From IMG/VR virus record IMGVR_UViG_2880412407_000002: a DNA stretch of 64,000 nt; one strand, 5' to 3'. Of the stretch, positions 19,069 to 21,077 are shown piece by piece. Source of the stretch: a virus (Duplodnaviria > Heunggongvirae > Uroviricota > Caudoviricetes). Each line of letters opens with the position of its first letter. Position 1 is the first letter of the stretch. The notes beneath the pieces were generated by a model. It was not told where the DNA came from, did not search any database, and was given only the letters and a program-made list of their open reading frames with translations. The position numbers and the translations under genes were made by a program.

Positions 19069-19260
19069 TTAAAGTCCTGCCGGTATTTCGTTATTATTAG
19101 TGTGAGTAGTTTTATCTACCGGATAACAGTTACCGGGAATTTTTTGTTCTGCTGCTGCAGCCATGCATTCTTTCATTGAACCGTATAAGCCAGTCACCAG
19201 CTCAAGAGATTCGCCGGAAACAAGATAAACTGTCAGAACGAGTGCAAATGTTGTATTCAT
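19069..19260 (-). CDS. ydfD: YdfD-like small protein
   Basis: 63 aa, hydrophobic N-terminus; 4-bp overlap with dicB as in Qin. Confidence 0.55.
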   Translation of the reverse strand: MNTTFALVLTVYLVSGESLELVTGLYGSMKECMAAAAEQKIPGNCYPVDKTTHTNNNEIPAGL

Positions 19261-19445
19261 TGTTTATATCCTTTTTGCAGCAGGTCCAGACGAGCCAGCA
19301 TTGAAGGAATGCATACTTCATTTAACAGGTCCTGCTCGAGTTTTCTCTGCTTAATGGCGTCTTCAATAAATGTTTTGTCTCCAGTGATAACGCCAATTTC
19401 GAAACGAAGTTCAGACGTGCTGGCATTACATGATAACTTTTCCAT
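19257..19445 (-). CDS. dicB: Cell division inhibitor DicB
   Basis: 62 aa from MEKLSCNASTSELRFEIGV; matches the Qin DicB pattern. Confidence 0.7.
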   Translation of the reverse strand: MEKLSCNASTSELRFEIGVITGDKTFIEDAIKQRKLEQDLLNEVCIPSMLARLDLLQKGYKQ

Positions 19446-19624
19446 TATCGCGTCCTCAACAATGAATTTTGTGATGCGGTGCCTGGTGCCTTCAGGTGAC
19501 GTTAACCAGTTAACAATTAACGCCGGATACAGAGCATTCTCGTTACTCAGCAAATGACCGCTTTACCGATTTAACTGTTCCGCGTGCGCTGAGCCGCATT
19601 CACCGCATCACAAAATTCACTTTT

Positions 19625-19682
19625 AAAAAAGGGCGGCAGAGCAGTCACGGAGTAAAACTGATACCGCCAAATGTCACCAGAA
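19625..19682 (-). ncRNA. dicF: DicF small RNA
   Basis: Reverse complement ttctggtgacatttggcggtatcagttttactccgtgactgctctgccgccc plus T tract matches K-12 DicF with one mismatch, from recall. Confidence 0.7.
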
Positions 19683-20018
19683 TATTGATAACAGAGGGCG
19701 TTGCAGCGGGGTTGTCACTTAAGCGTATGGTCAACCTGACAACCCGGTGTCCTCAACGGGGAAAGAATAACCCCGCCATACTTACCGCCGCGCCATTTCG
19801 CGGATTGCCACAACCGGAAGCGCACGGTCGAATTAAATTTAACGACGGCTCTAAGGGAGAAGGACTTCGCCGTGCACTTTCGTGTTATGCCCTGACTTTT
19901 CAGGGATATATCCTTTCAGTAAACTGTCAGTGCCGGATTCTTATCTGTGTCCGGCGCACGACCACACGTAGCAGCGTGTTGGTCTCCATTTTTAATTCAG
20001 CCCTTAATGGAGGATAAA

Positions 20019-20204
20019 ATGCCAAACAAACCATGCCCTGCCTGTAACGCTCTTTCTGGCTTTTTAGAGAAGGGCGGTTATTACATTTTTAACTGTCCAG
20101 AACATGTTGAATTTCATATATCAAAACTTGACAGTATCATTACAAAGCCAAATCAGTATCAGTCTGATTTACTGAATAAAGAGTTAAACGCCGCCCGAGA
20201 TTAA
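20019..20204 (+). CDS. Small CxxC zinc-ribbon-like protein, opposite strand to the left operon
   Basis: 61 aa MPNKPCPACN...NCPEH; convergent with 20242..20780. Confidence 0.4.
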   Translation: MPNKPCPACNALSGFLEKGGYYIFNCPEHVEFHISKLDSIITKPNQYQSDLLNKELNAARD

Positions 20205-20241
20205 TGGCGTAGTGGCCCATTAAAAATATTGCAAAGACCAA

Positions 20242-20780
20242 CTATTGTTGAACTGGATTAAACCAGTAATTCTCTATTGCTCTTATTGTTACCATCGGAT
20301 GATTGCCGGGGGTTATTTTAAGTTCGGGAGGAAAAGGCTCTCCATCAGCAGCCATCATTGAGTATGTGAAATCCGCCGACGCAGTCCCTTTCATGATAAT
20401 TCCGAATTTTTCAAGTAATGAGAGCAGTTCCGGTAATCCTGTGTCATCTGAATAACTTTCCTCATAGAAAGAAGCGATTGCCGCAGGAGATGACAGTTCT
20501 CGCTCTGCAATTTTTTTGTAGTTTTCCAGAATTCTTTTTTTGAATACTTTTCCTCGACATGAAAACCCATCACCGAGGCAATCCGCTTTGCAGTTTCTTC
20601 AGTATTCTGGTTGTTTGTTACCGAAACAGAGTACAATCCGGTAAACGCATCGCGCACATTACGAGCCATATTATCAATGTATTTCTTCGTTGCAGATTCT
20701 AATTCAACTTCGTTCAGACGTTGGTGAAGTGCATGTGCTGCAATTTCCTGGATTTCTTTTAGTAAATCTTTAAATTCCAT
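20242..20780 (-). pseudogene. Hypothetical early-left protein, frame broken in a 7-nt homopolymer (20511-20517)
   Basis: 129-aa ORF continues in another frame to a stop at 20242 (about 179 aa total if repaired). Confidence 0.45.
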
Positions 20781-20791
20781 CTTTAACTCCG

Positions 20792-20920
20792 TTAGTCGTT
20801 AGATTTTGCCGAACTGGAAAGCGCCTGTTTAAACTCACTGAAGCTGAGAGCTTCCTCGCCTTCGGCAAGGCCTTCGAAGTATTCTTCGTAAGCCTTTTCC
20901 ATGATTGTGTCGAAATCCAT
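20792..20920 (-). CDS. ydfB: YdfB-like 42-aa protein
   Basis: MDFDTIMEKAYEEYFEGLAEGEEALSFSEF; below the 60-aa ORF-track cutoff, found by manual translation. Confidence 0.5.
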   Translation of the reverse strand: MDFDTIMEKAYEEYFEGLAEGEEALSFSEFKQALSSSAKSND

Positions 20921-20921
20921 A

Positions 20922-21077
20922 TCACTCACCTGAGTTTCTTTCCAGCCAGCGACGGGCACCATTTTCGGTTTTAAACGTTTTGCTTTTGGTATACGTCATC
21001 GCGGTGAATGTACCGTCCTGGTTGGGAAACACGCCGTACACCAGAGATTCGTTGTTGCCAAGATCGATAGTATCCAT
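20922..21077 (-). CDS. ydfA: YdfA-like 51-aa protein
   Basis: MDTIDLGNNESLVYGVFPNQDGTFTAMTY from internal Met. Confidence 0.55.
   Translation of the reverse strand: MDTIDLGNNESLVYGVFPNQDGTFTAMTYTKSKTFKTENGARRWLERNSGE

What the first reader, a model, noticed from the sequence alone, without database searches (positions are those of the whole stretch)
19069..21077. Qin-like left operon with DicF sRNA, plus a convergent zinc-ribbon ORF and a frame-broken unknown gene
The minus strand carries ydfA, ydfB, dicF, dicB and ydfD in Qin order with a DicF sequence differing from K-12 by one base, so the prophage encodes an sRNA and a division inhibitor. Inserted in this operon are a roughly 179-aa protein of unknown function (if repaired) and a 61-aa CxxC protein on the opposite strand, converging with a 37-bp gap. 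The oppositely oriented pair is a candidate exclusion or host-takeover module.
Basis: partly seen in the sequence, partly recalled or inferred. Interest (0 to 1): 0.45.

Follow-up and report, generated by a model that had tools for sequence, protein, structure and literature searches.

The report
Decayed swappable gene pair beside DicF
This is the already known DicF/DicB cell-division-inhibitor operon of an EHEC lambda-like prophage, and the two "unknown" genes inside it are a broken copy of an undescribed, swappable two-gene cassette found in many E. coli prophages.

Summary
Rfam calls DicF at 19631-19682 (-) with 77 bits against a threshold of 48. ydfA, ydfB, dicB and ydfD lie in Qin order. 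The 129-aa and 50-aa ORFs are one 179-aa gene broken by a 1-nt deletion (A8 to A7, 20511-20517). The 61-aa CxxC ORF converges on it with a 37-bp gap.

New points:
- The small ORF is also damaged. Relatives are 80 aa, and a TCA-to-TAA change at 20203 removes a conserved tail.
- Both lesions are present in all 385 complete E. coli genomes that carry this allele, including O157:H7 Sakai Sp4.
- The pair is one of at least seven alternative cassettes. Each has a conserved about 55-aa N-terminal helical domain fused to a swappable C-domain, plus a convergent small gene specific to that type (91 of 91 loci for four types). All but one type (G) use one shared leader; three types are seen in only one to three loci.
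- The pairing persists at 33%/40% identity in a distant prophage.
- K-12 Qin has precisely deleted such a pair.

No protein matches any Pfam, NCBIfam, PADLOC or PDB family. I infer a cognate antagonist pair (effector and neutraliser) that is inactive in this window. The DicF/dicB part is already known.

The parts
21259..21302 (-). Promoter-like site of the early-left operon (TTGACA-18-TAGATT, 21288-21259). It overlaps a 39-bp palindrome with 16-bp arms (21264-21302) that looks like an operator.
   Evidence: 10 of 12 promoter match and an inverted repeat. The position matches dicBp upstream of ydfA in K-12 (PMC10448788). Function is inferred.
20922..21077 (-). ydfA (DUF1391), 51 aa.
   Evidence: Pfam PF07151 at 98.5 bits. 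97% nt identity to K-12. PGAP annotation.
20792..20920 (-). ydfB, 42 aa.
   Evidence: phrog_2061 at E 3.5e-27. PGAP calls it 'protein YdfB'. 97% nt identity to K-12.
20242..20780 (-). Broken 'big' gene of cassette type A, 179 aa if repaired. PGAP annotates the 129-aa ORF 20391-20780. The 50-aa ORF 20242-20394 is the out-of-frame C-terminal end.
   Evidence: Intact homologues are 177-186 aa. Three-frame translation. dN/dS is 0.20-0.29 among intact alleles.
20613..20780 (-). Conserved N-terminal domain, residues 1-56 (MEFKDLxxxIQxIAAxxL...NVRDAFTGLY). It is a two-helix hairpin and is still in frame here.
   Evidence: 81 of 83 profile hits among 1.84 billion representatives include or overlap it; about 70 of these cover little beyond residues 1-70. 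AF2 pLDDT is 85-93 over residues 1-50. It is shared by at least 7 C-domain types.
20511..20517 (-). A7 run (T7 on the + strand), the site of the 1-nt deletion. Intact alleles have A8. A second A7 run lies at 20535-20541.
   Evidence: All 385 complete genomes with this allele have A7.
20019..20204 (+). Truncated 'small' gene of cassette type A: 61 aa, zinc ribbon CPxC-x16-CPxH. The TAA stop at 20202-20204 is a TCA-to-TAA nonsense change (C to A at 20203).
   Evidence: Relatives are 80 aa. dN/dS is 0.08-0.19. phrog_10133 at E 7e-48. The family has only 4 clusters among 5.8 billion proteins. TAA is seen in every sequence I read (L001, L002, L004, L105), and no genome matches the intact version.
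20205..20261 (+). Former 3' end of the small gene: 19 codons, still open in frame. In intact alleles it overlaps the 3' end of the big gene by 20 nt.
   Evidence: Residues S62, G63, R73, P74 and V77 are invariant even in the 40%-identical homologue. 20205 carries a G-to-T SNP private to this window.
19932..20018 (+). Shared leader of the small gene: hairpin 1 (19932-19955), hairpin 2 (19960-19984), a T-rich tract, and SD GGAGG (20009-20013).
   Evidence: Conserved upstream of the small ORFs of types A, B, C, D and F; type E keeps hairpin 1 with a variant SD; type G has a different leader. Also kept in Salmonella loci with a different downstream context. Hairpin 2 shows mismatches without compensation, so a structural role is unproven.
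19897..19925 (+). Possible promoter of the small gene (TTTTCA-17-TAAACT).
   Evidence: Read from the sequence. It scores 8 of 12, below the scan threshold. A -10-like TAAACT/TAAAAT stays at the same distance from hairpin 1 in two otherwise unrelated contexts. Weak and inferred.
19683..19960 (-). Conserved untranslated region upstream of DicF, the precursor that RNase III and RNase E process in K-12.
   Evidence: 83% identity to K-12. Processing described in PMC10448788.
19631..19682 (-). DicF sRNA with its 3' terminator stem-loop and U tract.
   Evidence: Rfam RF00039 at 77 bits, full length.
19257..19445 (-). dicB, 62 aa.
   Evidence: Pfam PF05358 at 131.8 bits over 1-62 of 62. PGAP annotation.
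19069..19260 (-). ydfD homologue (DUF1482), 63 aa. It overlaps the dicB stop by 4 nt.
   Evidence: Pfam PF07358 at 69.2 bits.

Best explanation
**What it is (shown).** The segment is the repressor-controlled early-left (dicBF-type) operon of an Sp4/CP-933M-like lambdoid prophage. The minus strand runs promoter, ydfA, ydfB, a 'big' gene, the DicF precursor, dicB, ydfD and an exonuclease.

DicF and DicB are intact. By homology they should do what they do in K-12. [quoted passage not shown] DicB blocks division through MinC.

Between ydfB and the DicF precursor sits one allele (type A) of a polymorphic two-gene cassette.
- The big gene is read with the operon. It encodes a conserved N-terminal helical hairpin of about 55 aa fused to a swappable C-domain.
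- The small gene lies on the opposite strand, tail to tail with the big gene. In most types it starts at one shared leader, SD and ATG, and it encodes a protein specific to the C-domain type. Here that protein is a zinc ribbon.

**How it works (inferred).** The two products are a cognate antagonist pair. The small protein would be made in the lysogen from its own promoter while the operon is repressed. It would bind and neutralise the C-domain effector that is made when the operon fires. Alternatively the small protein is the factor that the effector neutralises.

**State in this window (shown).** Both genes are inactivated. The big gene has an A8-to-A7 frameshift and an R163M change at a residue invariant in the family. 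The small gene has a nonsense codon that removes 19 conserved residues. What remains is an N-domain stub, a tail-less zinc ribbon, and possibly antisense transcription across the DicF precursor.
For: **Anatomy**
- Rfam call for DicF.
- Pfam, PHROG and PGAP assignments.
- K-12 homology blocks at 21114-20794 and 19960-19000.

**Frameshift**
- Intact alleles have A8 (L007, L010). Divergent alleles have no run at that site.
- All 385 complete genomes with this allele have A7.

**Nonsense codon**
- Relatives are 80 aa in L005-L012, L114 and L115.
- No genome matches the intact version. TAA was read directly in four sequences (L001, L002, L004, L105).
- The lost tail holds residues that are invariant at 40% identity.

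**Both are real genes**
- dN/dS is 0.08-0.19 for the small gene and 0.20-0.29 for the big gene.

**Cognate pairing**
- A-a 22, B-b 35, C-c 22, D-d 12, with no mixed pairs.
- Types E, F and G have the same layout.
- The distant homologue P0139 (33% identity, no N-domain) still has a convergent, 71-nt-overlapping zinc-ribbon ORF at 40% identity.
- The pair moves as a unit into a KilR/pRha context in Salmonella.
- K-12 Qin lacks exactly the pair, a 795-bp deletion.

**Operon transcription and DicF processing**
- PMC10448788.

**Decay after inactivation**
- The window's small gene differs from the nearest intact allele by 0 synonymous and 3 non-synonymous changes.
- R163M.
Against: - No experiment and no homology shows that the two proteins bind each other or have any activity.
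- All searches were negative: Pfam, NCBIfam, PADLOC, PDB sequence search and Foldseek.
- The AF2 models are poor outside the N-domain, with pLDDT 53-60.
- Co-variation could come from physical linkage inside one recombining segment.
- The small gene is disrupted next to an intact big gene in at least 5 of 12 type D loci (L024, L027, L028, L029, L031) and in 4 type B loci. It is therefore not an essential antitoxin, at least while the operon is repressed. Some of those lesions may be homopolymer sequencing errors.
- E. albertii loci carry an N-domain gene with no small partner.
- The promoter of the small gene is only a weak consensus match. Expression was not tested.
Confidence: 0.55

Rival explanations
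1. The two genes are independent accessory genes ('morons') with no functional link. They co-vary only because they lie in the same DNA segment, between two conserved recombination sites: the N-domain coding region and the leader.
For: - The variable segment is bounded by conserved sequence on both sides, as is typical of lambdoid mosaicism.
- Leader variants recombine independently of cassette type.
- Either gene can be lost alone.
- There is no sequence evidence of interaction.
Against: - At least seven unrelated segments all have the same design: a C-domain fused in frame to one N-domain, plus a convergent ORF, usually from one shared ATG.
- The pairing and the 3' overlap persist at 33%/40% identity, without the N-domain and without the shared leader.
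- K-12 deleted exactly the pair.
Confidence: 0.2
2. The roles are reversed: a defence and self-antidote pair. The small protein would be a lysogen-expressed exclusion or defence factor. The C-domain of the early-operon protein would be the prophage's own antidote, made on induction so the phage escapes its own block.
For: - The orientation implies opposite timing. The small gene is antisense to a repressor-controlled operon (PMC10448788).
- High polymorphism fits an arms race.
- Loss of the small gene next to an intact big gene is tolerated, as expected for a dispensable defence gene.
Against: - No PADLOC hit for any type.
- Proteins of 61-102 aa with no enzymatic motif are unusual as stand-alone defence effectors.
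- A conserved N-domain on an antidote has no obvious rationale.
- Nothing was tested.
Confidence: 0.15
3. The locus is functional as it stands. Either the full-length 179-aa protein is produced by programmed -1 ribosomal or transcriptional slippage on A_AAA_AAA, or the 129-aa and 61-aa truncated products are the selected forms in EHEC.
For: - A -1 shift on the A7 heptamer restores exactly the TTKKIAERE sequence of the intact protein.
- The downstream frame is still open for 89 codons.
- The allele is invariant in 385 genomes of several serotypes.
- phrog_1363 matches the 129-aa form end to end.
Against: - Intact relatives encode the protein in one frame with A8, and divergent alleles have no A run at the site. 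The shift is therefore mutational, not a conserved recoding signal.
- The window allele carries R163M at a family-invariant residue, and its small gene shows 3 non-synonymous and 0 synonymous changes.
- The invariance is explained by recent spread of one prophage, which is 99.9-100% identical.
- The PHROG family was probably built from these same frameshifted prophage copies.
Confidence: 0.08
4. The plus-strand unit matters mainly as RNA. Convergent transcription from the leader through the cassette would interfere with the dicBF transcript, or form RNase III substrates with it, and so damp leaky DicF and DicB production in lysogens.
For: - The small gene lies antisense inside the polycistronic DicF precursor (PMC10448788).
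- The leader is more conserved than the ORFs it drives.
- 3' overlaps range from 0 to 194 nt.
Against: - The ORFs are under clear purifying selection at the protein level and have a strong SD.
- The module also occurs in loci without dicF or dicB.
- The hairpins show no compensatory changes.
Confidence: 0.07

Closest known systems
dicBF operon of the K-12 Qin cryptic prophage (ydfABC-dicF-dicB-ydfDE), with copies in O157:H7 CP-933M/O/P
   Same: - Same gene order and homologous ydfA, ydfB, DicF precursor, DicF, dicB and ydfD (97% and 83% nt identity).
- Same promoter position.
- The window is 99.9% identical to Sakai Sp4.
- dicBF copies in CP-933 prophages are already noted in PMC5069750.
   Different: - ydfC is absent here.
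- A two-gene cassette that K-12 has deleted is present here.
- A PaaA2-ParE pair lies between the repressor and the promoter.
- The downstream exonuclease is intact.
Polymorphic toxin / immunity cassettes (CdiA-CT/CdiI, Rhs-CT/RhsI, colicin/immunity)
   Same: - A conserved N-terminal part is fused to unrelated, swappable C-terminal domains.
- Each C-domain type comes with its own small adjacent gene.
- Type matching is strict, and the C-domain and partner are exchanged together as a module.
   Different: - No secretion or delivery domain.
- No recognisable toxin or immunity fold.
- The partner gene is convergent and overlaps at the 3' end, instead of lying downstream on the same strand.
- The location is a phage early operon, so the target would be intracellular.
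- No toxicity has been shown.
Type II toxin-antitoxin modules, for example the PaaA2-ParE pair 300 bp away in this window
   Same: Two small cognate proteins, carried on mobile elements, often found decayed in prophages.
   Different: - The genes are not co-transcribed.
- There are no TA domains.
- The small gene can be lost while the big gene stays intact.
- The only hint is a sub-threshold GhoS (type V antitoxin) match of the type F small protein: E 0.015, 15.8 bits against a cut-off of 21. The PDB search did not confirm it.
Lysogen-expressed genes embedded antisense or independently in lambdoid early-left operons (lambda sieB, rexAB, morons)
   Same: An accessory gene with its own expression signals sits inside a repressor-controlled early operon. 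The position is mosaic and highly variable.
   Different: - The small gene is convergent with the operon, and its 3' end abuts or overlaps that of a partner gene.
- There is no sequence similarity to SieB or Rex.
- No exclusion phenotype is known.

Membership tests
DicF RNA (Rfam RF00039) | Covariance-model score at or above the gathering threshold, over the full model | tested here: met
   77.0 bits against 48, model positions 1-52 of 52, E 2.9e-15.
DicF RNA (Rfam RF00039) | Lies in a long untranslated stretch upstream of dicB and ends in a terminator stem-loop plus a U run | tested here: met
   DicF at 19631-19682, dicB at 19257-19445. GGCGG...CCGCC stem followed by TTTTTT.
DicF RNA (Rfam RF00039) | Hfq-dependent repression of ftsZ, xylR and pykA mRNAs | not testable with these tools
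   One base differs from K-12 (A at position 11), and that base matches the Rfam consensus.
Qin-type dicBF operon | Gene order ydfA-ydfB-ydfC-dicF-dicB-ydfD downstream of a DicA-type repressor | tested here: inconclusive
   The order is kept and four proteins match their families. However, ydfC is missing, a cassette is present, and the repressor region is of the ECs1069 type with a PaaA2-ParE pair in between.
Type II toxin-antitoxin system | Two adjacent genes co-transcribed as one operon | tested here: not met
   The genes are convergent. Their 3' ends overlap in intact alleles.
Type II toxin-antitoxin system | A recognisable toxin or antitoxin domain | tested here: not met
   No Pfam, NCBIfam or PADLOC hit above threshold for any cassette type.
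Type II toxin-antitoxin system | The antitoxin is retained wherever the toxin is intact | tested here: not met
   The small gene is disrupted beside an intact big gene in at least 5 of 12 type D loci (L024, L027, L028, L029, L031) and in 4 type B loci. Caveats: the big gene is repressed in lysogens, and some lesions may be sequencing errors.
Polymorphic toxin / immunity cassette | Conserved N-terminal region with unrelated alternative C-terminal domains | tested here: met
   At least 7 C-domain types on one N-domain.
Polymorphic toxin / immunity cassette | A type-specific small partner gene next to the C-domain | tested here: met
   91 of 91 loci are matched and none are mixed. The pairing is kept at 33%/40% identity.
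Polymorphic toxin / immunity cassette | Partner gene immediately downstream on the same strand, and an N-terminal secretion or delivery domain | tested here: not met
   The partner gene is convergent. The N-domain is a 55-aa helical hairpin with no signal or trafficking domain.
Polymorphic toxin / immunity cassette | The C-domain is toxic and is neutralised only by the cognate partner | not testable with these tools
   Needs expression experiments.
Known anti-phage defence systems (PADLOC-DB 2.0) | Match to a defence-system protein model | tested here: not met
   No significant hit for types A-G. The best is E 0.007 to HEC-02A over 36 residues.
Programmed -1 frameshift gene | Slippery heptamer at the frame junction | tested here: met
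   A_AAA_AAA at 20511-20517. A -1 shift gives the ancestral protein sequence.
Programmed -1 frameshift gene | The two-frame arrangement is conserved among homologues | tested here: not met
   Homologues are single-frame, with A8 or with no run at the site.

The most novel reading that the evidence does not exclude
The ydfB-dicF interval of dicBF-type (and KilR-type) lambdoid prophages hosts a previously undescribed family of polymorphic intracellular effector/neutraliser modules. A constant 55-aa N-terminal adaptor domain carries interchangeable C-terminal effector domains. Each is matched by a convergently encoded small protein that is expressed in the lysogen, in most types from a shared leader. 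This would be a phage-borne counterpart of toxin-CT/immunity cassettes, acting in host takeover, self-immunity or superinfection exclusion. The window holds a decayed type A copy, fixed in the 385 complete E. coli genomes that carry this allele.
Probability: 0.35. Interest if true: 0.65.

Novelty: new variant of a known kind. Interest (0 to 1): 0.4.

Why it matters
The DicF/dicB part adds nothing new. EHEC prophage copies are already published, and DicF is known to affect EHEC virulence regulation.

The value lies in the two "hypothetical" genes, ECs_1061 and ECs_1063 in Sakai. They are the remains of a modular, type-matched gene pair. Its conserved N-domain coding region gives a DNA match in 730 of 5,426 complete E. 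coli genomes, and at least seven interchangeable versions exist.

If the pair is an effector/neutraliser or a defence/antidote system, it would be a new class of phage accessory module. It would sit directly upstream of a toxic sRNA/protein operon and be easy to test with intact alleles.

For annotation, ECs_1063-type genes should be flagged as frameshifted pseudogenes and ECs_1061-type genes as truncated. K-12 Qin should be read as a deletion derivative of this locus.

Tried and rejected
- **Family searches.** I searched Pfam, NCBIfam, PHROGs and PADLOC for all ORFs and for the other cassette types. Only function-unknown PHROGs and sub-threshold noise came back.
- **PDB searches.** Profile searches with the big and small families returned nothing below E 0.06. 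The weak GhoS hint for the type F small protein was not reproduced against the PDB.
- **Structure prediction.** AF2 of the intact 179-aa protein with 9 and then 48 sequences gave a confident model only for the N-terminal helical hairpin. Foldseek against the PDB gave no match with E below 2.
- **ydfC.** I tested whether the 129-aa ORF is a ydfC homologue. It is not.
- **Two coupled genes.** I considered that the 129-aa and 50-aa ORFs, which share an ATGA overlap, are two translationally coupled genes. I rejected this because the 50-aa ORF starts at internal Met130 of the intact protein.
- **Phase variation.** I considered phase variation at the A run. I rejected it because 385 of 385 genomes have A7.
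- **RNA hairpins.** I looked for compensatory changes in the two leader hairpins. There are none. Hairpin 2 accumulates mismatches.
- **More distant relatives.** Scans of viral, genome and metagenome collections for distant relatives of the zinc-ribbon protein found only the same two clades.
- **Literature.** Searches for the locus tags, WP accessions, PHROG ids and 'Ybl81' found nothing.
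Full report
**1. Checking the observation**

The window is an E. coli O121:H19 / O103:H2-type lambdoid prophage. Region 19000-21200 is 99.9-100% identical to many STEC chromosomes, and the 833-bp cassette segment (19961-20793) is 99.9% identical to O157:H7 Sakai prophage Sp4.

Rfam places DicF at 19682-19631 on the minus strand. The score is 77.0 bits against a gathering score of 48, over the full model. Against K-12 it differs at one base of the 52-nt Rfam span: A instead of G at RNA position 11, window 19672, which is the Rfam consensus base. 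The extra 5' base of the 53-nt K-12 annotation also differs.

The operon genes all match their families, and PGAP annotates the same coordinates:

| Gene | Coordinates (-) | Family evidence |
|---|---|---|
| ydfA | 20922-21077 | DUF1391, 98.5 bits |
| ydfB | 20792-20920 | phrog_2061, E 3.5e-27 |
| dicB | 19257-19445 | Pfam DicB, 131.8 bits |
| ydfD | 19069-19260 | DUF1482, 69.2 bits |

The 61-aa CxxC ORF is 20019-20204 (+), with a GGAGG Shine-Dalgarno five bases upstream. The 37-bp gap to the 50-aa ORF is exact.

**2. The frame break is real and mutational**

A database search with the 129-aa ORF found 177-186-aa relatives that match only its first ~92-95 residues (71-74% of the query). The intact P0007 (179 aa) continues ...KTTKKIAERELLSP..., which is the reading of the window's other frame down to the 50-aa ORF.

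Intact close alleles (L007, L010) have ACAAAAAAAATTGCA, an A8 run. The window has A7 at 20511-20517. Divergent intact alleles have no run at that site.

I searched with a window-derived sequence into which I had inserted one A. It matched 385 complete genomes, every one with a single gap and none exactly. A -1 slip on A_AAA_AAA would restore the protein. However, homologues are single-frame, and the window allele carries R163M at a residue invariant in the family. I therefore read this as a pseudogene, not as recoding.

The ATGA overlap between the 129-aa and 50-aa ORFs is coincidental. That ATG is internal Met130 of the intact protein.

**3. The small ORF is also damaged**

In every locus with an intact big gene, the convergent ORF is 80 aa long, and its 3' end overlaps the big gene by 20 or 44 nt. 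The window has TCA changed to TAA at codon 62 (C to A at 20203). The next 19 codons are still open in frame and still similar.

The lost tail contains S62, G63, R73, P74 and V77. These residues are invariant even in a 40%-identical homologue. No complete genome matches the intact version, and TAA was read directly in all four sequences I inspected.

Among intact alleles both genes evolve under purifying selection. dN/dS is 0.08-0.19 for the small gene and 0.20-0.29 for the big gene. Both are therefore genuine genes. The window's small gene differs from its nearest intact relative by 3 non-synonymous and 0 synonymous changes.

**4. What the pair is**

K-12 homology covers 21114-20794 and 19960-19000. 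The 833 bp in between have no K-12 counterpart, and the 129-aa ORF is unrelated to YdfC.

A profile search of 1.84 billion representative proteins gave 83 hits. Most of them (about 70) cover little beyond the first ~70 residues (MEFKDLPxxIQxIAA...NVRDAFxGLY), and this domain is attached to many unrelated C-termini. AF2 models this N-domain as a two-helix hairpin with pLDDT 85-93. The rest of the protein is not modelled with confidence.

I surveyed 80 IMG/VR loci plus genome loci and found four common cassette types. Each has its own convergent small ORF:

| Type | Big protein | Small protein | Loci |
|---|---|---|---|
| A | 179/186 aa | 80-aa zinc ribbon | 22 |
| B | 212 aa | 69 aa | 35 |
| C | 112/119 aa | 64 aa | 22 |
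| D | 129 aa | 99 aa | 12 |

No locus has a mixed pair. Types E, F and G repeat the layout. In types A, B, C, D and F the small ORF starts at the same leader, ATGGAGGATAAAATG, preceded by two hairpins (window 19932-19984). Type E keeps hairpin 1 with a variant SD, and type G has a different leader. The same leader stays with the cassette in Salmonella loci whose downstream genes are pRha/KilR instead of dicF/dicB.

So the variable unit is exactly the C-domain plus the small gene. It is bounded by the N-domain coding region on one side and by the leader on the other.

Two results argue against mere linkage:
- P0139 is a 119-aa protein with only the type A C-domain (33% identity). It sits in a different prophage, and it still has a convergent 91-aa zinc-ribbon ORF at 40% identity that overlaps it by 71 nt.
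- K-12 Qin, compared with L116, has lost 795 bp that correspond exactly to the big gene plus the small gene. Loci L116-L118 carry ydfC as well as a cassette.

**5. How it probably works**

In K-12 the operon is transcribed from dicBp upstream of ydfA. [quoted passage not shown]

The window has a promoter-like site, TTGACA-18-TAGATT, at 21288-21259. It overlaps a palindrome with 16-bp arms. The big gene is therefore expressed only when the operon fires.

The small gene faces the other way, inside the DicF precursor. If it has its own promoter, it can be expressed only when the operon is quiet. A weak TTTTCA-17-TAAACT lies at 19897-19925, and the -10-like element is kept in two otherwise unrelated contexts.

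Opposite timing, strict type matching and modular exchange fit a cognate antagonist pair best. I favour the small protein as neutraliser of a C-domain effector. The reverse reading, a lysogen defence factor with a phage self-antidote, is a close rival. All of this is inference. No family, fold or defence-system match exists for any type.

Two observations count against a strict toxin-antitoxin reading:
- The genes are not co-transcribed.
- The small gene is disrupted beside an intact big gene in several type D and type B loci. Some of those lesions lie in homopolymers and could be sequencing errors.

In this window both partners are broken, so the cassette is most likely inert.

**6. Comparison with known systems, and novelty**

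The DicF/dicB operon is already known, including its presence in CP-933M/O/P and Sakai prophages (PMC5069750).

The cassette resembles polymorphic toxin-CT/immunity modules in its logic. It fails their defining features of same-strand partner order, a delivery domain and a recognisable toxin domain. I found no paper that mentions these ORFs.

I rate the finding as a new variant of a known kind. The anatomy is well supported, the mechanism is unproven, and this window holds a dead copy.

**7. Verdict**

Interest is 0.4. The most novel reading still open is a new family of phage-borne polymorphic effector/neutraliser modules, with probability about 0.35 and interest 0.65 if true.

Noticed in passing
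window 20205: The window has T here (TAA TGG). The four reference sequences I inspected (L001, L002, L004, L105) have G (TAA GGG), and none of the 385 genomes matched the intact query. The base lies just after the premature stop, so it is probably neutral. The 385 genomes were not checked at this base, so 'private' rests on those four sequences and on the one-mismatch hits.
   Followed up: partly
window 21354-21832 (-): A PaaA2-type antitoxin (63 aa, PF21217) and a ParE toxin (95 aa, PF05016) lie between the repressor gene (21860-22261) and the early-left promoter. This is the position of rexAB in lambda. A terminator-like hairpin at 21335-21320 follows parE.
   Followed up: partly
window 21264-21302: A 39-bp palindrome with 16-bp arms (ACAATTAAAAACTGTT...AACAGTTTTTAATTGT) overlaps the -35 of the early-left promoter. 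It is probably the repressor's operator.
   Followed up: no
L003 (K-12 Qin) 3562/3563 versus L116 1499-2293: K-12 Qin is a clean 795-bp deletion derivative. It lacks exactly a type E big gene and its convergent small gene, but keeps ydfC and the hairpin-1 leader remnant.
   Followed up: yes
L062, L065, L069, L074, L089 (IMG/VR, type B cassettes): 1-nt losses in A runs recur in other cassette types. The small b gene goes A7 to A6 right after its start in five loci. The big B gene goes A6 to A5 in L062, and P0071 and P0130 are similar. This could be real recurrent inactivation or homopolymer sequencing error.
   Followed up: partly
L117/L118 1789-2097 (-): The type F small protein (102 aa) gives a sub-threshold, near full-length match to the type V antitoxin GhoS (PF11080, E 0.015, 15.8 bits against a cut-off of 21). 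A PDB sequence search did not confirm it.
   Followed up: partly
L005 ~1100-1250 and L010 ~4050-4150: Some dicB-linked loci carry a diverged DicF-like RNA. It keeps the terminator hairpin, but the 5' seed UUCUGGUGAC is missing or changed. These may be DicF variants with other targets.
   Followed up: no
window 16504-18975 (-): An intact 823-aa exonuclease (YdfE_N, YdfE_C and Rv2179c-like domains in relatives) lies downstream of ydfD. The K-12 ydfE is an IS2-disrupted pseudogene.
   Followed up: no
window 28439-28613 (+), 34357-34529 (+), 33338-33584 (+): Rfam also calls a sok antitoxin RNA (107 bits), the sRNA STnc100 (105 bits) and three tRNA genes elsewhere in the prophage.
   Followed up: no
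window ~23792-24917 (+): In the near-identical genome NZ_CP027454, PGAP marks the replication-region 'DNA-binding protein' as frameshifted. In O103:H2 12009 it is intact, but there the neighbouring ECs1072-family gene has an internal stop. This is further evidence of prophage decay.
   Followed up: no
L096, L097 (E. albertii) and L098 (Xenorhabdus stockiae): N-domain genes exist outside E. coli and Salmonella. The two E. albertii loci have a 124-aa protein with no convergent partner. The Xenorhabdus locus has an N-domain-only 50-aa ORF with a convergent 60-aa ORF that overlaps it by 4 nt.
   Followed up: partly
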